11,079 nucleotides of DNA from Promethearchaeota archaeon. GTDB lineage: Archaea > Asgardarchaeota > Lokiarchaeia > Sigyniarchaeales > SOKP01. Positions 1,936 through 11,079 of the stretch are shown one piece after another; position 1 is the stretch's first letter; the number at the start of each line of letters is the position of its first letter. Both the position numbers and the translations under genes were made by a program. The notes below the pieces were generated by a model. That model saw only the letters and a list, made by a program, of their open reading frames with translations. It searched no databases and was not told the origin of the DNA. Where the stretch lies: assembly GCA_016840085.1 (NCBI GenBank), contig JAEOTA010000083.1:1-11079 (forward strand). The letters are read 5' to 3'.

Positions 1936-3393
1936 TCATGTTTGCGCAATCATGAGCGATTGATCATATAAATAATTTAGATTTCCTTCGTAATTTTCAC
2001 TAATCTCGATTCTTGTACTTACTTCATTTGAATAGTACTCATTTTTAATTGCATCAAAATATGGAATCCTAAACTGAAAGTAAAAAGTTCCTTTAGCATC
2101 TAATCTAAATTCTCCAATGAAATTATCTTGTTTTATCCCTGGTGGAATTTCTTGTTTTAAATCAATTGGATCTCTTTTTTTAGTTACAATTTCTACTTTT
2201 TGGTTATTTTCATCTAAAACCTTAAATTCTATTCCAGGAATTTCTATTTGAAATCCTTTTAATACTGAAATTTTGATTTCAAAATATCCACTACTCGAAG
2301 TTAATTGTTTGTTTTTAACATCTAATTTTACAATAGGCTTTATTATTTCAACTTTTAACTGTTTTCGATGTATCTCTTTAAAATTATTATTATATGCAAT
2401 GATTTCAATTCTTTCAATTTTAATTGGTTTGTTCCCTTCCGGAATTATTGAATAAAACTCAAATGGAATATAATTGATGTTTTTTTCTAAGATGTCAAGA
2501 GAATAGATATCTTGAGTCTCCTTAATATCATATTGAATATTCAAAAAGTTTCTAATTTTTAAATTGTTAGATACTTTTAATTCAATTTTAACAATTTCTT
2601 TTGAAAAAATTTTAATCCATCCCAAAATATTTTCATTTGGAAGTGCCCATGTTCCACAACCAGCTTCGAATATAGATTCGGAAATTTCAGTAATTTTCTC
2701 TGGCTTAATTTCCTTGAATTCAATAATATTTCTATAATAATTATTATAACTTTGAGTTAATTTAGTAATAATTTTCTTACCATAATTGGTCATTTCATAG
2801 AAAGAATACTCATTAGTAGTCTCATTCTTTCTTAAAAAGTTTTGAATTAAACCGCAAAATTCTAGCTTTTTTAAATGATTAGTAATTAAACTTTTCTCCT
2901 TATTTGTAACCCTTACAATATCAGAAAAGGATAATGATCCTTTATCCATTAATAATAGAACTAATGCATATCTAAATTTATTGGATATACCTTTTAATAG
3001 AGCTTCAAAATCTTTTGGAATTTTCTCCTTATAATCAAATTGGATGATGTTCAGATTATTGGCAGTTTTTTCATAGTAATTGTTATAACTTTTTATTAAA
3101 TCAGAAATTATAGCTTTTCCATAACTAGTTATTTCATAAAATGAAAATTCTTTAGATTCTTTAACTTTTTTTAAATAGTGTTGTACAATTCCAGCTAATT
3201 CTAATTTTCTTATATGATTAAGAACTGTACTGTTTGACTTATTTACATATTTGACTATTTTTGAGAGAGATAAACTTCCTTTTTCCATTAATAACAAAGA
3301 TAATTTAAATCTGAATTTATTACCCAAGCTTTTAATTAAAAATTTAAAATCTTTCGGAATTTTATCGTAATACTTATCTTTAAATTCAGTCAT
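1936..3393 (-). CDS. Tandem ArsR-like winged-helix protein with a beta-rich (Ig-like?) C-terminal region
   Basis: Two gapless 97-aa repeats (aa 11-107 and 124-220) show ArsR/wHTH patterning: LGNKFRFKLSLLLMEKGSLSLSKIV...STVLNHIRKLELAGIV...FYEITSYGK. The C-terminal ~245 aa have alternating hydrophobic, strand-like patterns. Confidence 0.85.
   Translation of the reverse strand: MTEFKDKYYDKIPKDFKFLIKSLGNKFRFKLSLLLMEKGSLSLSKIVKYVNKSNSTVLNHIRKLELAGIVQHYLKKVKESKEFSFYEITSYGKAIISDLIKSYNNYYEKTANNLNIIQFDYKEKIPKDFEALLKGISNKFRYALVLLLMDKGSLSFSDIVRVTNKEKSLITNHLKKLEFCGLIQNFLRKNETTNEYSFYEMTNYGKKIITKLTQSYNNYYRNIIEFKEIKPEKITEISESIFEAGCGTWALPNENILGWIKIFSKEIVKIELKVSNNLKIRNFLNIQYDIKETQDIYSLDILEKNINYIPFEFYSIIPEGNKPIKIERIEIIAYNNNFKEIHRKQLKVEIIKPIVKLDVKNKQLTSSSGYFEIKISVLKGFQIEIPGIEFKVLDENNQKVEIVTKKRDPIDLKQEIPPGIKQDNFIGEFRLDAKGTFYFQFRIPYFDAIKNEYYSNEVSTRIEISENYEGNLNYLYDQSLMIAQT
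2734..3363 (-). repeat. Intragenic duplication of the wHTH domain (3363-3073 and 3024-2734)
   Basis: Manual gapless alignment gives 55/97 identical residues; both copies run KIPKDF...SYNNYY. Confidence 0.95.
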
Positions 3394-3464: not shown

Positions 3465-3962
3465 TTAACTTTTTCGTAAAATGTTGATTAAATTTTGTTT
3501 TATGAAAATAATGATTTTTTGATAAATTTCTATGTAATAATGAAAATAAAACACCTTTAATTCGTGTTTTTTTAATAGAGCTTTTAACATAAATGCATCA
3601 ACATTTCTGGATAATAAAACTAATGATGTTGCTTTTTTTTCTAAGAAGTAATTTGAATGTATTAAGTTTGACAATTCTATTGAGGCAGAAACATCATTAT
3701 TAGAAAAAAATATAAAAATATTGAAATCCGCTTTTTGCATTTCTTTATTAATTTCATTAAGAACATAAATCTCTCTTTCTTCAATTGGAGTATCCTCAGG
3801 TATTTTAATAATTTCATTTGCTAAAAAAGTATGAATAAATCCCTCGTTTCTTAATTTCTCAATTAAATTTTCCAAATAGGGTTTATTTTTTGGATGATAA
3901 GAACCAAATACAAGAACGTAAATTTTGTCATAAAAAGTGCTAATATCAATGAATTTTGTCAT
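3465..3962 (-). CDS. Nucleoside 2-deoxyribosyltransferase-like / TIR-like (flavodoxin-type alpha/beta fold) protein
   Basis: The pattern is strand 1 IYVLVFGSY, helix LENLIEKLRNEGF, strand TFLA, helix ...EMQKADFNIFIF, then DVSASIELS. This matches the 'AD-hhhh...G/S-x-x-x-E-L' layout of NDT/TIR-like enzymes, with a candidate catalytic Glu. Confidence 0.6.
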   Translation of the reverse strand: MTKFIDISTFYDKIYVLVFGSYHPKNKPYLENLIEKLRNEGFIHTFLANEIIKIPEDTPIEEREIYVLNEINKEMQKADFNIFIFFSNNDVSASIELSNLIHSNYFLEKKATSLVLLSRNVDAFMLKALLKKHELKVFYFHYYIEIYQKIIIFIKQNLINILRKS

Positions 3963-4115: not shown

Positions 4116-6362
4116 TTATTGAAAATATATTGTCTTTGTAGTTTTTTTTACTGAATAATCATTTCCTATATCTAAAGCGATAGTCCAAATATCATCATCA
4201 AGTTCTTTACTTTTTTCTAAATTTAATTCTTCTCTTATTGCTTTGGTTGTATAATGATAAGTGATTTGTTTATTAGTTTTACTTTTATCAATGATATAAT
4301 TTTTAACTGCTAGCTTTATTTTTTCAACACCTACTTCTAATAGCACTTTTTTCTTAGTAATGAGTTCTTCAGTATCATCAGATACTTGACTTTTTGTAGA
4401 GATAGGTTCTTTTTGAGAAATCATAAAATCCGTAATTTCTTTTTCCTCTTTTGGAATTTTAATTTCTTTTGTTAATTTAGAGAGAACTGATAATCGTGTT
4501 TTGAATGTCAGCGGGGATAAGTTGATTTTATTTAAAAGACCCTCCGCTTCTTCAATTGAGGGATTATTTTCAAATATCTCTTTAAAATAGGTTATAAAAG
4601 ATAGGTAACCTACCTCTGTATCATCTAATGGACTAACCCGTCCAATATATTCTTTCAAACCTTCGGATATAGCATATCTATATTTTAAATCCAATTCAAC
4701 GTTAGTTATCCACGTAACATAATCTAATGCATTTTCTTCCAGTAATTTATAAGTTTTTTCTATGTCCATTTTTGTAACTTTGTTAGATTTCCTATAAACT
4801 TTAACTTCAATACCAAGATTTTTCACAAATTCAGCCCCTAAATTCCCAAAAAATTCTAGAAATACATCAGGTTTCTTTCCCGATTTACCCAACGGGGGCT
4901 CATGTTTAACATCAGTTAGATAATCATAATCTGAGTGATTTTTGAGGACCTCAAAAAAATCACATAGTGCTAATTCTACTTTGGTAGATCTTACCTTGTC
5001 CTGAATACTAGGATCTAATAATTTTTTTGTAAATTCTTTTTGTTCGGTGATTGTTAGTAGAATATCTTCTCTTTGTCTGAAAGCTTTAAATGCTTTAAAA
5101 AAAGTATTAACATGTTCTAACTTTTTATTCTTCTTGTAGTGTTCAATAAGCTCATAAAGATTTTTCAAGGTCTTTCGAAGATCTAATCCGCTATCCTCAT
5201 ATAAATATTTAATACTATTCTTTCCAAAAGGAAAAAGGGAATTGTCTGGAGAAGGTTGATAATTAAACTTAGACCAAAAATTAAATAAATATTTATTGAT
5301 TATATCTATAATGTAATTGGGCTCTAAGTTTGTTAAAGCTATTATTTTGGACCAATTATTTAACTGTAATTCCTGATCTTCTTGAAGGATCTCATCAAAT
5401 GCACCGAATGCATCTAGGGTCCCAGATAATATAATCGTAAGATACTTTTTCTGTCGTAAATTTAATAACAATGAAAATAGATTCTTGTAAACATCTTCTT
5501 GGTGTTCAGAGATTCCAGCTTCTAAATGATCGAATATTAATATGATTGTAGTCTTCTCATCGAAACACCATCTAATTAATTCGATTAATTCATCTATATA
5601 TTTTGAAGCATCATTATTAGTCTCCACGTTATAACCAGAATAATCATAACTTCCTTGAAAAGCTCTCATTGCATCAAATGTATTGGGATTTTGAATATGA
5701 GATTTCCAGAAAATCATTAAAAAATTTAAATCAACAGGAATTAATTCTTTTAATATTATAATATTACTCGTTAAGAGATCGATAAGTTTGTTGTAAAAAC
5801 TAGGGTTATCAATTCTTTTCCTTATAAAACTTAGATTAACAGAAAGACTATTAATCTCTTCTCCAGCAAATTTTTTTGAAAGCTCGTTATAAAGATTTCC
5901 TCCTTTTTCAACTAGGATATTGATAAATTTTCTTATTGAGTTCAAGAGGATATCAACACAAATACCAGATCTTTCAAGATTGGATACGAATTGACGATAT
6001 AATGCACGCATCTCATAGTCTTCTGGTTGAGAACTAGTTTCAAGATATGTAATTGGTATTTGATATGCTTCCGAAATTTCATTTACTGTCCAACAAATTA
6101 ATGTTGATTTACCAATCCCTTGTTTACCTATTACCCGTATTAATTTAGGCTGTTTGTAATGAATACTATCTCTGATTTCATATTTTATTTCTTCAATATA
6201 CTTATCTCGTCCATAACAAAAAGAAGGAGGATTATTGTAGAAATTTGTCGCAATTGGGGGTTTAGGAAAAGGATTTTCATTTTCAGGATTTAATAAAATT
6301 TCACTACATTTTTTAAGCCAATCCCATTCATCTTTATTTGAGAAGAAATGCATATTATACAA
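4116..6362 (-). CDS. AAA+/P-loop ATPase fused to a PD-(D/E)xK nuclease-like domain and a probable C-terminal wHTH
   Basis: N-terminal NPF...YGRDKYIEEI; Walker A GKQGIGKST (6128-6102); Walker B IILIFDHLE (~5546-5520); lid segment LFPFGKNSIKYLYEDSGLDLRKTL. The nuclease-like core is VELALCDFF...KKPDVFLEF...LGIEVK (~4980-4800). Start is TTG 6362 or ATG 6353. Confidence 0.85.
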   Translation of the reverse strand: MYNMHFFSNKDEWDWLKKCSEILLNPENENPFPKPPIATNFYNNPPSFCYGRDKYIEEIKYEIRDSIHYKQPKLIRVIGKQGIGKSTLICWTVNEISEAYQIPITYLETSSQPEDYEMRALYRQFVSNLERSGICVDILLNSIRKFINILVEKGGNLYNELSKKFAGEEINSLSVNLSFIRKRIDNPSFYNKLIDLLTSNIIILKELIPVDLNFLMIFWKSHIQNPNTFDAMRAFQGSYDYSGYNVETNNDASKYIDELIELIRWCFDEKTTIILIFDHLEAGISEHQEDVYKNLFSLLLNLRQKKYLTIILSGTLDAFGAFDEILQEDQELQLNNWSKIIALTNLEPNYIIDIINKYLFNFWSKFNYQPSPDNSLFPFGKNSIKYLYEDSGLDLRKTLKNLYELIEHYKKNKKLEHVNTFFKAFKAFRQREDILLTITEQKEFTKKLLDPSIQDKVRSTKVELALCDFFEVLKNHSDYDYLTDVKHEPPLGKSGKKPDVFLEFFGNLGAEFVKNLGIEVKVYRKSNKVTKMDIEKTYKLLEENALDYVTWITNVELDLKYRYAISEGLKEYIGRVSPLDDTEVGYLSFITYFKEIFENNPSIEEAEGLLNKINLSPLTFKTRLSVLSKLTKEIKIPKEEKEITDFMISQKEPISTKSQVSDDTEELITKKKVLLEVGVEKIKLAVKNYIIDKSKTNKQITYHYTTKAIREELNLEKSKELDDDIWTIALDIGNDYSVKKTTKTIYFQ

Positions 6363-6382: not shown

Positions 6383-6997
6383 TTATTTTAATTTAAACCA
6401 AACAAATTTTTTCCCATCTTGTACTAACGGGGCACCTCGGTCTCTTTTTCCAGGTTGTAATTCAACTTTATAATTTAAAAACAGTGAATATAAGTGTTTA
6501 TGAATTCTTTCGGTTGACCATGGAATAAAATTTTTGATTTTTTCAGTTAAATCAGAAATTAGAACAAATTCGCCAAATTTTTTATCTAATGAGTTATAAG
6601 ATAATTTCAATATTCGGAAAAAATGATCCTCCGAAATCTCTGATACCGATTCAGTATCAATGCCAATCTTATCTTCTAATTTCTTAAGTCTACGACTGAA
6701 ACCTTCTAATGTTCTATGAATATTTGTAATATCAGATTGAATTTCTCCGATAATACTATTATCAATCTTCAGTGATTCTGCTTTCTCAAAAATGATACCT
6801 CTTGAAGGCTTTTCTAATAAATTTTTTGCCCCCTTAATAAACTTTTCTGCTGTTTTTTCTCCAATACCCTTAATTCTTTTTAAATCACTAATAGTTGACT
6901 CAGCTAACTTCTGTACTGAATCAATATTAGCACTCCTTAGCAGTGATAGTTTCTTTTCACCAATACCATCAATATCTTCAAGAACTAAAGCTGGCAA
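6383..6997 (-). CDS. Helix-hairpin-helix / coiled-coil / winged-helix DNA-binding protein
   Basis: Two HhH motifs (LEDIDGIGEKK and LKRIKGIGEKTAEK), a heptad segment (IQSDITNIHRTLEGFSRRLKKLEDKI), and a C-terminal three-helix plus hairpin pattern (FFRILKLSY...VLISDLTEKI...VELQPG...KFVWFKL). TTG start with SD GAGGT 7 nt upstream. Confidence 0.85.
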   Translation of the reverse strand: MPALVLEDIDGIGEKKLSLLRSANIDSVQKLAESTISDLKRIKGIGEKTAEKFIKGAKNLLEKPSRGIIFEKAESLKIDNSIIGEIQSDITNIHRTLEGFSRRLKKLEDKIGIDTESVSEISEDHFFRILKLSYNSLDKKFGEFVLISDLTEKIKNFIPWSTERIHKHLYSLFLNYKVELQPGKRDRGAPLVQDGKKFVWFKLK

Positions 6998-7221: not shown

Positions 7222-7698
7222 TTAGTATCCTTGTACTAATTTGATTCCAAATTCTTTGCATTTTGGAAGTTCTTCATTTACTATAGGCCCTTTTGAAGCT
7301 CCTGTACCTTCAACTTTTATAGACAATCCTGGACTTGCTTTTGTTAAATCTGGCATCAATTCACTGATCTGTTTCTCCATCTTTTTAACTGCTTTTTCAA
7401 AATCAGCTGTTATGTAGGTATCAAATACAGCATAAGCATTTACCTTTAATTGAGATTTTGGAAGTTTATTGATAAATTTCTTTACCGAGCCTACATGCTT
7501 TCCAAAATGATTCGGAGATCCTATTAAAATTAAGTCATAGGAAGCTTCTTCTTTAAGGTTTACATCTTTTACATTATTAACTATTACTTCATTACCCTCA
7601 GTAGACGTGATTCCTTCTGCTATTAATTTGGCTACTTTTTCAGTATTTCCATACTTTGTAGCATACACTATTAGAACTTTCACTTTGATACACATCAT
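7222..7698 (-). CDS. Flavodoxin-domain (FMN-binding) protein
   Basis: KVLIVYATKYGNTEKVA is the FMN phosphate loop; YDLILIGSPNHFG and AVFDT are also present. The true start may be GTG at 7683 (MKVLIVY). Confidence 0.92.
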   Translation of the reverse strand: MMCIKVKVLIVYATKYGNTEKVAKLIAEGITSTEGNEVIVNNVKDVNLKEEASYDLILIGSPNHFGKHVGSVKKFINKLPKSQLKVNAYAVFDTYITADFEKAVKKMEKQISELMPDLTKASPGLSIKVEGTGASKGPIVNEELPKCKEFGIKLVQGY

Positions 7699-7963
7699 TT
7701 AAGATTTTTATTGGAACTTACTATTCCTAATTAACCTTAATAATTAAGTCTTTTCAGAAAATTCTGTTATTTTTATTACAACGCTAAAGAAAAAGGAATA
7801 AATGGAGTTTTAATGAATTTAATTAATAAAATATCATAGTTTATCCACTGAACACCCCAAATTCTCAAATTCCTAGTAGTATTATTAAATTTAAGCTTAA
7901 TAGATGATTGCCTTATAAGAATTAATTCTTATAGTATCTTTAATAAATAATAGGAATTATGTT

Positions 7964-7978
7964 ATGAAATTTATAATA
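7964..7978 (+). promoter_or_regulatory. Putative BRE/TATA box (gaaaTTTATAAT) for the PRTase-DprA pair
   Basis: TTTATAAT at 7970-7977, preceded by purines, ends 31 nt before ATG 8009. This favours 8009 over 7964 as the start. Confidence 0.4.
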
Positions 7979-8008
7979 TTTTTATCAAATAATAAGAATA
8001 GTTTAATT

Positions 8009-9376
8009 ATGGAAAAAGAGACTGATCAAAAATTTTATATTGAAATAAAACAATCAAGAAAGGGACATTACTTTCTTGGTTCCTTAAAAATTCATGCTAA
8101 CTCTATTGAAGAAATGGAGAATTTAATGGATTCCGCTTTATCCTCTGCATTGCATAAGATTAAGCTCTTGAATGAGAGTAGACGCAAAGAAAAAAAGGTA
8201 AAAAAATCTGTACAATTATCAGATCCAGACGATAAGCAACTATTTGAAAAGCTACGTCATTGGAGGCTTGAGCTTTCTCGAGCGCAGGGTGTGCGGCCAT
8301 TTATGATATTTCATGATTCTACATTAAAGGAAATTGCAATAAGGAGACCTGTTACAAGAGAAGAGTTGTTTCGAATATCTGGTATTGGTCCAAAGAAATA
8401 CGACAAATATGGAGATAAACTCTTAGAAATCGTACATACCTTTATCACTGATAATCAAGTAAAAGAGAGTGAAAATCAAAACGTTATAGAGAATTTAAAT
8501 AAAAATAAAACATTAAATATGGAAATAGAAAAACCTAAATCAAGAGTTTTTATACAGGGAGATAGAGTAATAATTCAAACCCAATCAAATTATGACGGAG
8601 AAATTGGAAAAATTGTAGGATATGATGGTTATAAATATTTTGAAATTGAACTATTGAGTATAAAAAAGACTATAAATTGTTTAGAAAAAGAGATAGAAAT
8701 AGCTCCTGCTGAATATATTAGAAAATATGAACTAGAAATCAATCTTGATAATAATAAAATTCTTAAATTAAAAGCTCAGAATTTGAAGCCATCTATTGAA
8801 GCGTTAAGAGATAATCAAGTTTTTAAAGGTTTATATGCGTTAGGGAAATATTATTCTTTACGAGATTATCCTGAGAAGCATAAAAATGATTTTCTTTCAC
8901 AAAAGATAATAGAACTTAAATCATTAAATAAAAAGGCTGGTCAAGAGATCGCAGAAATATATTTAAGTTTCATAGAGGATTTAGCAGAATTAAAAAGAAT
9001 TACTGATAAAATCGATTATATAGTAATGATGCCGACAACAAAAGAGACAAATCATGTTAGTCTATGGGGAGATAAAATCTGTGAAGCTTTAAATAAGGAA
9101 AATCTTACGAAATTTATCTATATTAACCCAGAAAAGGTAGGCTATTTGAAAGATTACGTTCATAAGGATCTCTGGGGGCGCAAGCTTACTGCCAAGGGAG
9201 CTTTTCGAATAGATAAGGATAAACCTAGTTTTCCTTTATTAACTAACAAAACCTGCTTAATTTTGGATGATGTTTGTACTACAGGAAATCAGATTAATGC
9301 ACTTACTAATTTATTAGCTGAAGAAGGAATAAGGGAAGTGTATGCTTTTGTAATAGGAAAAACAAAATTTAGTTGA
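8009..9376 (+). CDS. HRDC + SH3/KOW-like + ComF/ShosT-like type I phosphoribosyltransferase fusion protein
   Basis: HRDC domain LFEKLRHWRLELSRAQGVRPFMIFHDSTLKEIA...ISGIGPKKYDKYG (~8231-8434). KOW/SH3-like segment FIQGDRVII...GEIGKIVG (~8549-8700). PRPP-binding loop LILDDVCTTGNQ (~9257-9292). C-terminal VYAFVIGKT as in ComF-like PRTases. The ORF track extends the start to 7964. Confidence 0.9.
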   Translation: MEKETDQKFYIEIKQSRKGHYFLGSLKIHANSIEEMENLMDSALSSALHKIKLLNESRRKEKKVKKSVQLSDPDDKQLFEKLRHWRLELSRAQGVRPFMIFHDSTLKEIAIRRPVTREELFRISGIGPKKYDKYGDKLLEIVHTFITDNQVKESENQNVIENLNKNKTLNMEIEKPKSRVFIQGDRVIIQTQSNYDGEIGKIVGYDGYKYFEIELLSIKKTINCLEKEIEIAPAEYIRKYELEINLDNNKILKLKAQNLKPSIEALRDNQVFKGLYALGKYYSLRDYPEKHKNDFLSQKIIELKSLNKKAGQEIAEIYLSFIEDLAELKRITDKIDYIVMMPTTKETNHVSLWGDKICEALNKENLTKFIYINPEKVGYLKDYVHKDLWGRKLTAKGAFRIDKDKPSFPLLTNKTCLILDDVCTTGNQINALTNLLAEEGIREVYAFVIGKTKFS

Positions 9377-9415
9377 ATTTAATATTATAGAATAATAATT
9401 ATAGGTTGAAGTTTA

Positions 9416-10417
9416 ATGAATCTAAGCTTTTATTTACTATTAAGCAAATATATCCCATTACCCTTATCTGCTTTAAAAATTGTAGAAAAGGATAAAGATC
9501 ACCCCTTTAGAAGCCTAGCGATATTAACTCAAAAAGAAATTGAACAACAATTAATAATCTTTAATAAAACACCTGGTATTTCGATAAAAAACATTAAGGA
9601 AAAAGTATTGAAGATTCAAAATTTAATTCAAAATGATTTTATCGAAAAAATTGATGGAAATTTAAATAGATGGAATAAATCTGGAATAAAAATCATAAGG
9701 TATTTCGATAATTCCTATCCAAAAAACCTCAAGGGTATTAAAGATGCTCCAAAAATTATTACTTATCAAGGAGACTTTAACCTATATAGTGAAAGATCCA
9801 TATCGATAATTGGTACTCGGAATCCAACAGATTATGGAATAGGTATGGCTCGTAAAATAGGGAGTAGATTTGGCGAATTAGGTTTTTTAATTGTTAATGG
9901 ATTTGCTAAAGGAATTGATACACATGCAATTAAGGGGGCTTTAGCGGTAGGAGGAAAAATTATTGGTGTATTAGGGTCAGGTTTACTACATATATATCCA
10001 AAAGAAAATAAAGAATTATTCTTTAATATTGTACAAGAAGGTAAAGGAGTATTTATATCAGAGCACTTACCTGATGATACCATAAAAAAATCAACCTTAG
10101 CTGCTAGAAATCGAATCTCTAGTGCACTTAGTCTAGGGAATATAGTAATAGAAGCGGGAAAGGGATCAGGAACTAGATGGCAAGTAGAATATGGCAAAGA
10201 ACAGGGTAAACCTATAATAGTTTTAAAACCCAAGGGAAACTATGAACAAGCATACTTACCTAATTATATAATTGAGCACGAGAAAAATTGTTTCATCATT
10301 GAAAATATTGATGATGTTGATAATATCGCAAATTCAATCTTGGAACTTAATAAGGAGAAAAAAGAAAAACATAGAGAAATTAGTAATAAATACCAAAAAA
10401 CTCTCTCAGATTTTTAA
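9416..10417 (+). CDS. dprA: DprA/SMF-family (ShosA-like) DNA-binding protein with C-terminal PIP box
   Basis: YPKNLKGIKDAPKII, SIIGTRNPTDYG, IVNGFAKGIDTHA, VLGSGLLHIYPKEN, ISEH, ARNRISSALS and VIEAGKGSGT form the DprA Rossmann-fold motif series. It lies 39 nt after the PRTase gene and ends QKTLSDF*. Confidence 0.93.
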   Translation: MNLSFYLLLSKYIPLPLSALKIVEKDKDHPFRSLAILTQKEIEQQLIIFNKTPGISIKNIKEKVLKIQNLIQNDFIEKIDGNLNRWNKSGIKIIRYFDNSYPKNLKGIKDAPKIITYQGDFNLYSERSISIIGTRNPTDYGIGMARKIGSRFGELGFLIVNGFAKGIDTHAIKGALAVGGKIIGVLGSGLLHIYPKENKELFFNIVQEGKGVFISEHLPDDTIKKSTLAARNRISSALSLGNIVIEAGKGSGTRWQVEYGKEQGKPIIVLKPKGNYEQAYLPNYIIEHEKNCFIIENIDDVDNIANSILELNKEKKEKHREISNKYQKTLSDF

Positions 10418-10455
10418 ATTTTTATTCATTTTAACCAAAGCCCTCCTTATATTAA

Positions 10456-10626
10456 TGTACAAAAACCCATAAAGTTCTTGAAAGTCATGAGCTTATTCTA
10501 AATGGTAATTTAAAAGAACTAACATTAAATTACATGAAAAAATATGGATGGAAGAATGTTATGGTTTATTCATGGATTCTACAGAATATGATAAAGCCAC
10601 CAAGAAAATTGAGAGATTATTATTAG
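10456..10626 (+). pseudogene. C-terminal relic of a GIY-YIG-like nuclease gene
   Basis: A start-less frame reads CTKTHKVLESHELILNGNLKELTLNYMKKYGWKNVMVYSW...KPPRKLRDYY*. It resembles the 'WTKxHKP...TxxYMxKYGxxNVRG' tail of a GIY-YIG subfamily, with W>C and RG>MV decay. The N-terminal GIY/YIG part is absent. Confidence 0.55.
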
Positions 10627-10736
10627 TATAACTTATTGAGATAATTTAGAATAATTTGTAGTAAAATATCTTATTTTATATCAATAAATTATATTGAAAT
10701 GAATATCAAAATGATTTTAGGTATCATGTTCATTTG

Positions 10737-10836
10737 TGTCCAATATTGGACATTTTAGAAAATCCATTTTTTCAGTATGTATAAAATCAGAGGAAATTGA
10801 AAATTAACAATGTTCTATTTTGTCCAATAGTGGACA
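10737..10836. repeat. Two copies of a 16-bp palindrome TGTCCAATA(T/G)TGGACA
   Basis: 10737-10752 TGTCCAATATTGGACA is a perfect palindrome. 10821-10836 TGTCCAATAGTGGACA is 15/16 identical. The starts are 84 bp apart, in non-coding AT-rich DNA. Confidence 0.9.
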
Positions 10837-11079
10837 ATTTGGGATCTTTTTGTATTTAAATGATTTTAAAATAAGAGAAAATATGTAAATAACAATACTT
10901 TAAATTCTTCTCTTATAGTTAAGTGATCTTTTTTATAATTTCTTGTTTTGGCTGATAATTTTTAATTTACCTTCATCGACAAAAATATTTATAGCTTTTG
11001 GAGGCTTAATTAAATCACGTTTTTCCTAAACGACAGACTTAAATTCGCCTAATCCTCTATTTTAATTAATGAATTAATT

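What the first reader, a model, noticed from the sequence alone, without database searches (positions are those of the whole stretch)
8009..10417. ShosTA/ComF-DprA-like two-gene system with an atypical HRDC-SH3-PRTase partner in an apparently archaeal genome
Seen: a PRTase gene is followed 39 nt later by a DprA-family gene, with its own TATA-like promoter. Known: PRTase plus DprA-like pairs form the bacterial ShosTA toxin-antitoxin/anti-phage system, and ComF(C) and DprA cooperate in bacterial natural transformation. Here the PRTase has neither the ComF zinc finger (no CxxC pairs) nor a recognisable HAD-type hydrolase domain, and carries HRDC and KOW/SH3-like modules instead. The DprA is divergent (NGFAKGID, SGTRWQV in place of SGLAxGID, SGSLITA) and lacks a C-terminal winged-helix domain. 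Inference: an archaeal variant of a DNA-sensing nucleotide-metabolism toxin with a DprA antitoxin, or a DNA-uptake/recombination module.
Basis: partly seen in the sequence, partly recalled or inferred. Interest (0 to 1): 0.85.

Follow-up and report, generated by a model that had tools for sequence, protein, structure and literature searches.

The report
Clamp-tagged ShosTA-like pair in Lokiarchaeia
This is an Asgard-archaeal version of a known bacterial toxin-antitoxin antiviral gene pair, and its antitoxin ends in a tag that looks built to grip the archaeal DNA-replication clamp, while bacterial relatives end in the matching tag for the bacterial clamp, a feature we could not find described.

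Summary
The gene pair is real: a PRTase (8009-9376; HRDC, KOW/SH3 and PRTase domains) lies 39 nt before a DprA-family gene (9416-10417) in a Lokiarchaeia genome. All 31 loci holding this PRTase family (21 distinct PRTases) have DprA directly behind. The conserved core is KOW-PRTase (~270 aa); HRDC is a swappable add-on, replaced by GIY-YIG or UvrD pieces elsewhere. The pair is rare and patchy, changes neighbours, and no ComEC or ComF was found, so transformation is unlikely. PADLOC hits ShosT and ShosA. ShosTA calls in Asgard archaea are already published, so the archaeal setting is not new. The DprA sits in an Asgard-only clade, beside neither E. coli ShosA nor competence DprA. New here: the DprA ends in a PIP-box-like motif (QKTLSDF), as do 27 of 49 family members under a strict pattern (shuffled 0.7%, proteome 1.3%). 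Meanwhile 61 of 120 bacterial ShosA-like proteins end in a beta-clamp motif (shuffled 3.8%). Best reading: a ShosTA-like type IV toxin-antitoxin defence cassette with a clamp-tethered antitoxin. Toxicity, defence and PCNA binding are inferred, not shown. The promoter claim is unsupported.

The parts
8009..9376 (+). Putative toxin: N-terminal beta-hairpin/helix module + HRDC + KOW/SH3 + ComF/ShosT-like type I PRTase, 455 aa
   Evidence: start supported
8033..8200 (+). Unassigned N-terminal module (two strands and a long helix, aa 9-64), seen only in the HRDC-bearing members
   Evidence: no usable Atlas hit
8225..8455 (+). HRDC domain (aa 73-149), accessory, RecQ-like
   Evidence: Pfam PF00570 E 4.5e-24; VIA Z 12.8 to E. 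coli RecQ HRDC; in 3 of 28 family members
8540..8707 (+). KOW/SH3-type barrel (aa 178-233), part of the conserved family core
   Evidence: VIA Z 8.8 to DSIF KOW, 8.4 to Spt5; present in all 28 aligned members
8735..9373 (+). PRTase domain (aa 243-455); PRPP-binding loop with invariant D420/D421 at 9257-9286
   Evidence: PADLOC ShosT E 2.7e-9, PsyrT E 4.8e-8; Foldseek top hit ShosT 8zvb; VIA ComF 7p0h Z 13.5, ShosT Z 10.1; invariant columns
9416..10417 (+). Putative antitoxin: DprA/ShosA-like protein, SAM + Rossmann fold, no winged helix, 333 aa; ssDNA-binding arginines R135 and R231 kept
10394..10414 (+). C-terminal PIP-box-like motif QKTLSDF (aa 327-333) on a low-confidence, probably flexible tail
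   Evidence: same style as the tails of this genome's FEN1, PolD DP2, Nre and DinB
10459..10617 (+). Remnant of a GIY-YIG domain (C-terminal half, no start codon), homologous to the GIY-YIG domains fused to the PRTase in relatives P0004 and P0046
   Evidence: tblastn 51% identity, E 2.6e-12; translation
7984..10711 (+). Extent of the cassette shared at 92% nucleotide identity with L027, where the flanks are different
10954..11079 (.). 126-bp repeated element end (IS-like), found at several other places and contig ends of the genome; not part of the system

Best explanation
A ShosTA-like (type IV) toxin-antitoxin cassette of Lokiarchaeia that most likely acts in abortive antiviral defence. Step 1 (shown by sequence and fold): the first gene is a PRPP-binding PRTase of the ComF/ShosT type with a fixed KOW barrel and a swappable nucleic-acid-handling domain (HRDC here). 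Step 2 (inferred from ShosT and RqlH): it uses PRPP to damage DNA or disturb nucleotide pools, and KOW/HRDC hold it near nucleic acid. Step 3 (motifs shown, function inferred): the DprA protein binds ssDNA through the two conserved arginines and promotes recombinational repair, presumably with RadA, without binding the toxin. Step 4 (motif shown, binding inferred): its C-terminal PIP box docks it on PCNA, so repair happens at replication forks; bacterial ShosA proteins carry a beta-clamp motif at the same place. Step 5 (inferred): infection removes or diverts the antitoxin (shut-off and turnover, viral ssDNA, or competition for the clamp), and the toxin stops the infected cell.
For: DprA follows the PRTase by 21-43 nt in all 31 family loci, 21 distinct PRTases. 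PADLOC ShosA E 9.7e-58 and ShosT E 2.7e-9; best PDB sequence hit of the DprA is ShosA; best Foldseek hit of the PRTase is ShosT. DD and the PRPP loop are invariant; the ShosA residues needed for antitoxin action, R139 and R234, map to R135 and R231. Patchy: true DprA in 38 of 400 Asgard genomes and 6 of 54 in the genus, this PRTase family in 2 of 400. Flanks differ between loci and include pAgo + REase, NERD/UvrD helicases, HerA and a TIR protein. Tail motif: strict PIP pattern in 27/49 family DprA against 0.7% shuffled and 1.3% of 3113 host ORFs; beta-clamp pattern in 61/120 bacterial ShosA-like proteins against 3.8% shuffled; the two motifs hardly cross over. Two sampled motif-bearing bacterial proteins have a ShosT neighbour. 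The host's FEN1, PolD DP2, Nre and DinB end in the same PIP style.
Against: No experiment on any archaeal member. The ShosT HMM match is weak (35 bits), the pyrophosphatase domain is missing, and only the DD loop aligns confidently with ShosT; by VIA the PRTase is closer to ComF than to ShosT. The DprA does not group with E. coli ShosA, and its fold matches competence DprA slightly better (Z 30.0 against 26.3). ShosA's RecA-contact R206 is Phe in all 18 family members, and no bacterial-type RecA was found. About a third of other Asgard DprA loci show no PRTase within 1.5 kb, and one Asgard subclade lacks the tail motif. Deleting ShosA's tail did not reduce toxin neutralisation in E. coli (PMC11961720), so the clamp link is not needed for rescue there.
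Confidence: 0.62

Rival explanations
1. A non-toxic accessory DNA repair/recombination module: the PCNA-tethered DprA loads RadA at stalled forks, and the ComF-like PRTase is a PRPP-sensing partner rather than a toxin, as ComFC is in transformation.
For: PIP tail like those of host repair proteins Nre, FEN1 and DinB. PRTase closest to ComF by VIA (Z 13.5) and ComF-like proteins are the next profile hits. Add-on domains and neighbours are repair-type: HRDC, GIY-YIG, UvrD. The Asgard DprA clade is old, spanning several families.
Against: Present in under 10% of Asgard genomes, at changing sites. Broken or missing PRTase partners beside intact DprA (L011, L015, L016) fit toxin decay. All 31 family PRTase loci keep their DprA, an asymmetry typical of toxin-antitoxin pairs. 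Tested bacterial two-gene PRTase + DprA pairs are toxic without the DprA.
Confidence: 0.22
2. A selfish addiction module: toxic PRTase and labile DprA keep the cassette or its variable region in the chromosome, with no real antiviral benefit. The tail may act mainly as a turnover signal.
For: Sharp cassette boundaries and different flanks in a 92% identical relative, and an IS-like end 540 nt downstream. ShosA's C-terminus confers instability (PMC11961720).
Against: No integrase or plasmid context in the window; neighbours in relatives include other defence genes; bacterial ShosTA and PsyrTA protect against phage. Addiction and defence are not exclusive.
Confidence: 0.11
3. A natural-transformation module (ComFC + DprA) for DNA uptake.
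For: Both proteins belong to families used in bacterial competence; sister Asgard PRTases carry a ComF-like zinc finger.
Against: No ComEC in the own genome (98.8% complete) or in five relatives with DprA, with controls positive in 10 of 14 genomes. No zinc finger in this family. The DprA lies outside the canonical competence set, whose sampled members sit beside topA or def/smg, not a PRTase.
Confidence: 0.04

Closest known systems
ShosTA (E. coli; Rousset 2022, Millman 2022; structures in PMC11961720 and PMC12961424)
   Same: Adjacent PRTase + DprA-like genes; PRPP-loop DD; SAM + Rossmann antitoxin with the two essential ssDNA arginines and a flexible C-tail; PADLOC hits to both genes.
   Different: Order is PRTase first (ShosA comes first in APEC O1 and P2); no N-terminal pyrophosphatase/HAD domain, KOW plus HRDC instead; RecA-contact R206 not kept; tail is PIP-like, whereas E. 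coli ShosA ends in a beta-clamp-like QLSLL; the DprA is not sister to E. coli ShosA.
PsyrTA / RqlHI (PMC4670107)
   Same: PRTase fused to a RecQ-related DNA-handling part and paired with a DprA-like protein; PADLOC PsyrT E 4.8e-8 on the PRTase part.
   Different: No helicase core; only an HRDC domain, which the RqlH paper does not mention; PsyrA scores lower than ShosA (108 against 194 bits).
Asgard ShosTA calls by DefenseFinder (Leao et al. 2024, PMC11291487)
   Same: DprA + PRTase pairs in Lokiarchaeales, reported as enriched in Asgard archaea.
   Different: The passages read give automatic calls only; the KOW-PRTase subfamily, its swappable N-terminal domains and the PIP tail were not found described. 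Most other Asgard pairs seen here are DprA followed by a zinc-finger PRTase.
ComFC + DprA of natural transformation
   Same: ComF is the closest PRTase fold by VIA (Z 13.5); S. pneumoniae DprA is the closest DprA fold (Z 30.0).
   Different: No zinc finger, no ComEC found, accessory and patchy rather than core, clamp-type tail absent from the canonical DprA sampled.

Membership tests
ShosTA | Adjacent DprA-like and PRTase genes, conserved as a pair | tested here: met
   31 of 31 family loci, gap 21-43 nt
ShosTA | Both proteins match ShosT and ShosA profiles | tested here: met
   PADLOC ShosA E 9.7e-58; ShosT (237-position model) E 2.7e-9, weak
ShosTA | Intact PRPP-binding DD loop (D331/D332 of ShosT) | tested here: met
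   D420/D421 invariant in 28 members and aligned to ShosT's loop
ShosTA | N-terminal pyrophosphatase/hydrolase domain of the characterised E. coli ShosT | tested here: not met
   Model has HRDC and KOW there. The domain is only accessory for toxicity (R56A marginal), so this excludes the E. coli type, not the mechanism.
ShosTA | Other PRPP contacts of ShosT (H240, K280, R285) | tested here: inconclusive
   The family has invariant H349, K376 and R391, but the alignment to ShosT outside the DD loop is unreliable
ShosTA | Antitoxin ssDNA-binding arginines R139 and R234 | tested here: met
   R135 and R231, 18 of 18; also universal in canonical DprA, so not discriminating
ShosTA | RecA-contact residues K200 and R206 | tested here: inconclusive
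   K kept (K196), R206 is Phe; the host has RadA-like proteins, so contacts may differ
ShosTA | DprA descends from the ShosA lineage | tested here: inconclusive
   Lies in an Asgard-only clade (99/94); its link to bacterial ShosA or canonical DprA is unresolved
ShosTA | PRTase toxicity, rescue by the DprA, and virus protection | not testable with these tools
   needs expression and infection assays
PsyrTA/RqlHI | RecQ-like helicase core fused to the PRTase | tested here: not met
   Only HRDC matches RecQ; no helicase domain in Pfam, NCBIfam or the model
ComFC/DprA competence system | ComFC N-terminal zinc finger | tested here: not met
   No CxxC pair in the protein
ComFC/DprA competence system | ComEC uptake channel in the genome | tested here: not met
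   PF03772 not found in G000 or five relatives; controls ring in 10 of 14
PCNA-interacting (PIP-box) proteins | Qxx[I/L]xxFF-type motif in a flexible C-terminal tail (consensus from PMC9690074) | tested here: met
   QKTLSDF matches Q, L and the first aromatic; the chain ends before the second aromatic; tail pLDDT under 50
PCNA-interacting (PIP-box) proteins | Physical binding to PCNA | not testable with these tools
   needs a binding assay

The most novel reading that the evidence does not exclude
ShosA-type antitoxins in general are sliding-clamp clients: they ride the host's replication clamp through a C-terminal motif (beta-clamp motif in bacteria, PIP box in Lokiarchaeia), which was re-keyed to the host clamp when the system settled in archaea. 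The system would then guard the replication fork itself: the PRTase, aimed at nucleic acid by interchangeable KOW/HRDC/GIY-YIG modules, makes a lesion that only the clamp-bound DprA repairs, and a virus that takes over or strips the clamp unleashes the toxin.
Probability: 0.35. Interest if true: 0.78.

Novelty: new variant of a known kind. Interest (0 to 1): 0.57.

Why it matters
How ShosTA senses infection, and what its PRTase acts on, are open: two structural papers give different triggers, and T7 escape mutations in SSB and primase-helicase are unexplained. A clamp-binding motif on the antitoxin tail, which neither paper's main text mentions, ties the system to the replisome and can be tested at once in E. 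coli with a few point mutations. The Lokiarchaeia family supplies the comparative argument: the motif type follows the host's clamp. Its nucleic-acid-binding add-ons support the older idea that these PRTases act on or at DNA. It also shows how a bacterial-type defence module was adapted to the PCNA-based machinery of the archaeal relatives of eukaryotes.

Tried and rejected
Complex prediction of host PCNA with the DprA tail (aa 296-333) gave no verdict: score 0.64, but an unrelated control scored 0.57; it is not used as evidence either way. No RNA holder was listed among sequencing runs, so expression is untested. Laying contigs showed no joint that skips the whole cassette, so no empty site was seen; one contig of a possible source run covers 7636-10790 without differences. 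Promoter scans gave chance-level counts. The N-terminal module aa 5-70 had no usable Atlas hit. Profile comparison with ShosT aligned only the DD loop. A single-protein search of 100 relatives with the PRTase found only the own genome; the family surfaced in metagenomes. No family member was found in viral contigs; the one hit matched only the PRPP loop and has no DprA. ShosA's IP-MS tables are not held as text, so DnaN could not be looked up; that experiment used a C-terminal FLAG tag beside the motif. Paper searches for DprA/ShosA with clamp or PIP found nothing relevant; the library lacks most subscription papers. The broad tail patterns (47/48 and 111/120) were written after seeing the tails and are inflated; the stricter counts are the ones relied on. 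The PRTase tree is a quick tree with long branches; only the KOW clade (SH-aLRT 99) is trusted. No AU test was run. Rejected: HRDC as the defining feature; loss of the winged helix as a sign of non-competence; a reduced PsyrT (no helicase).

Full report
Observation. The window holds two + strand ORFs, 8009-9376 (455 aa) and 9416-10417 (333 aa), 39 nt apart. An upstream ATG at 7964 exists, but nucleotide identity with the closest relative starts at 7984, which supports 8009. The first protein has an HRDC domain (aa 76-142, Pfam E 4.5e-24) and a PRTase motif; the second is a DprA (E 7.9e-55). An AlphaFold2 model (pLDDT 83) shows a small unassigned N-terminal module, HRDC, a flexible linker, a KOW/SH3 barrel (aa 178-233; Z 8.8 to a DSIF KOW) and a PRTase. 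The PRTase's best Foldseek hit is ShosT (E 1.5e-5) and its best VIA hit is H. pylori ComF (Z 13.5; ShosT 10.1). There is no zinc finger and no HAD domain. The DprA model is SAM + Rossmann with a long last helix and an unconfident tail. The promoter claim is not supported.

Host. A genome of the same order is Ca. Harpocratesius repetitus, so the host is a Lokiarchaeia member. It has one PCNA, RadA-like genes but no strong bacterial RecA match, one DprA, no second ComF-like gene and no ComEC.

The family. Searches found 28 full-length relatives sharing a ~270-aa KOW-PRTase core at 38-85% identity. A profile search of 1.84 billion representatives found about a dozen clusters, then a sharp drop to ComF-like PRTases. 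Most members are the bare core. Three carry HRDC, P0004 carries two GIY-YIG domains, P0046 GIY-YIG pieces, P0049 an apparent second KOW-like repeat, and P0029 joins a UvrD N-terminal half to the back half of the PRTase. The HRDC and GIY-YIG forms fall in one subclade of the PRTase tree, so these look like late additions. A GIY-YIG remnant also lies just behind the window's DprA (10459-10617, E 2.6e-12). In all 31 loci fetched (21 distinct PRTases) a DprA follows within 21-43 nt.

Distribution. Only 2 of 400 Asgard genomes hold this PRTase family. Full-length DprA occurs in 38 of 400, and in 6 of 54 in the genus. Of about 36 other Asgard DprA loci read, 21 have an intact adjacent PRTase, mostly downstream and often with a zinc finger; two have a broken or cut one. 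Flanks change from locus to locus. The closest relative shares 7984-10711 at 92% but sits behind a UvrD operon, not a flavodoxin. Neighbours elsewhere include pAgo with a restriction-type nuclease, NERD-helicases, HerA, a TIR protein and PDC-M11. This is the pattern of an accessory, mobile cassette.

Phylogeny. In a 100-row DprA tree the family is one clade (100/99), sister to Lokiarchaeia DprA whose partners are zinc-finger PRTases with a further C-terminal domain, inside a 50-row clade of Asgard and related metagenomic sequences (99/94). That clade is nested neither in canonical DprA nor beside E. coli ShosA; deeper nodes are open. The tree suggests (inference) that the PRTase-first order and the KOW are derived from a DprA-then-zinc-finger-PRTase arrangement; L046 carries both kinds of PRTase around one DprA.

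The tail. The DprA ends in QKTLSDF (10394-10414), which fits the PIP consensus Qxx[I/L]xxFF except for the last residue (PMC9690074). A strict pattern matches 27 of 49 family DprA tails, against 0.7% of shuffled tails and 1.3% of 3113 host ORFs; most of the rest keep the aliphatic-x-x-aromatic core with another first residue. The host's FEN1, PolD DP2, Nre and DinB end in the same style; that these are PCNA clients rests on my own knowledge of archaeal replication. E. coli ShosA ends in QLSLL, close to the beta-clamp consensus QL(S/D)LF. 61 of 120 bacterial ShosA-like proteins match a beta-clamp pattern (shuffled 3.8%), 2 match the PIP pattern, and none of the family DprA match the beta-clamp pattern. 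Two sampled bacterial proteins have ShosT neighbours. These sequences are related, so the counts are not independent events. The canonical control mostly ends in a winged helix and is not a fair one. One Asgard subclade, including Harpocratesius, lacks the motif. Neither ShosTA structural paper mentions clamps in its main text; both describe this tail as disordered, and one ties it to instability.

Mechanism. In ShosTA the PRTase binds PRPP, the DD mutant is non-toxic, and ShosA rescues indirectly by binding ssDNA and RecA (PMC11961720, PMC12961424). In RqlHI the PRTase is genotoxic without its DprA-like partner and was suggested to act on DNA (PMC4670107). The window's pair keeps the DD loop and both essential arginines. 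I therefore read it as a ShosTA-like type IV toxin-antitoxin defence cassette whose antitoxin is tethered to PCNA and repairs the toxin's damage at forks (confidence 0.62). Shown: architecture, conserved pairing, patchiness, motif enrichment. Inferred: toxicity, rescue, PCNA binding, trigger, antiviral role. The main caveats are the weak ShosT match, the missing pyrophosphatase domain, the lost RecA-contact arginine, and the fact that deleting ShosA's tail did not impair rescue in E. coli; the tail may matter for localisation, turnover or triggering instead. Rivals are a harmless PCNA-linked repair module (0.22), pure addiction (0.11) and transformation (0.04).

Comparison and novelty. It works like ShosTA, meets the gene-pair and profile criteria, but fails the E. 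coli ShosT domain architecture, so it is filed as a variant. It is not PsyrTA (no helicase) and not a competence locus (no zinc finger, no ComEC). ShosTA is already reported as enriched in Asgard archaea and frequent in archaea. What I could not find described is the KOW-PRTase subfamily with swappable nucleic-acid domains and the host-matched clamp motif on the antitoxin tail. The clamp motif restores part of the interest because it makes an open question about ShosTA directly testable. Interest 0.57; new variant of a known kind.

Noticed in passing
window 3465-3962 (-) and 1936-3393 (-): A 165-aa protein with Atlas leads to nucleoside deoxyribosyltransferase-like and retron-effector STM3845 clusters (scores 0.77-0.86) precedes a double winged-helix ArsR-like protein. 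Homologs of both flank a PRTase-less DprA in G216 (L090), and the ArsR-like one in G217 (L095). Possibly another defence pair.
   Followed up: partly
window 4116-6362 (-) and 6383-6997 (-): A 748-aa AAA/STAND-like ATPase behind an HhH protein; a 24% identical ATPase lies next to the DprA-PRTase pair of G050 (L211). The whole window may be a defence-rich variable region.
   Followed up: partly
window 10954-11079: 126-bp repeated end found at seven or more other places and contig ends of the genome, probably an IS that broke the assembly.
   Followed up: partly
L035:171-1643: P0029 joins the N-terminal half of a UvrD-like helicase to the back half of the PRTase, still followed by DprA; seen in two JGI samples. 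Probably a deletion between a UvrD gene and the PRTase, as in the gene order of L027.
   Followed up: partly
L046:92-2694: One DprA flanked by two different PRTases: KOW-PRTase upstream and zinc-finger PRTase downstream.
   Followed up: partly
L004:2506-3600, L005, L006, L102, L108: Sister Lokiarchaeia pairs in which DprA (also PIP-tailed) precedes a ~360-aa zinc-finger PRTase with an extra C-terminal Cys/His domain that looks SWIM-like by eye.
   Followed up: partly
L050:1234-4150 and L209:2793-5708: Nearly the same pAgo + REase pair lies near DprA-PRTase cassettes of two different subtypes.
   Followed up: partly
L009 / G068:C1:1026000-1028000: The complete genome of Ca. Harpocratesius repetitus has a DprA-PRTase pair beside a transposase-like ORF; its DprA lacks the PIP tail.
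   Followed up: partly
G000:C25:9359-10879, C22:59823-60689, C28:668-2044: An LRR protein, a DUF72 protein and a DNA methylase of the host also end in PIP-like motifs.
   Followed up: no
L030:3501-3914, L044, L049, L050: A small Smr-domain gene sits directly beside the pair in four loci.
   Followed up: no
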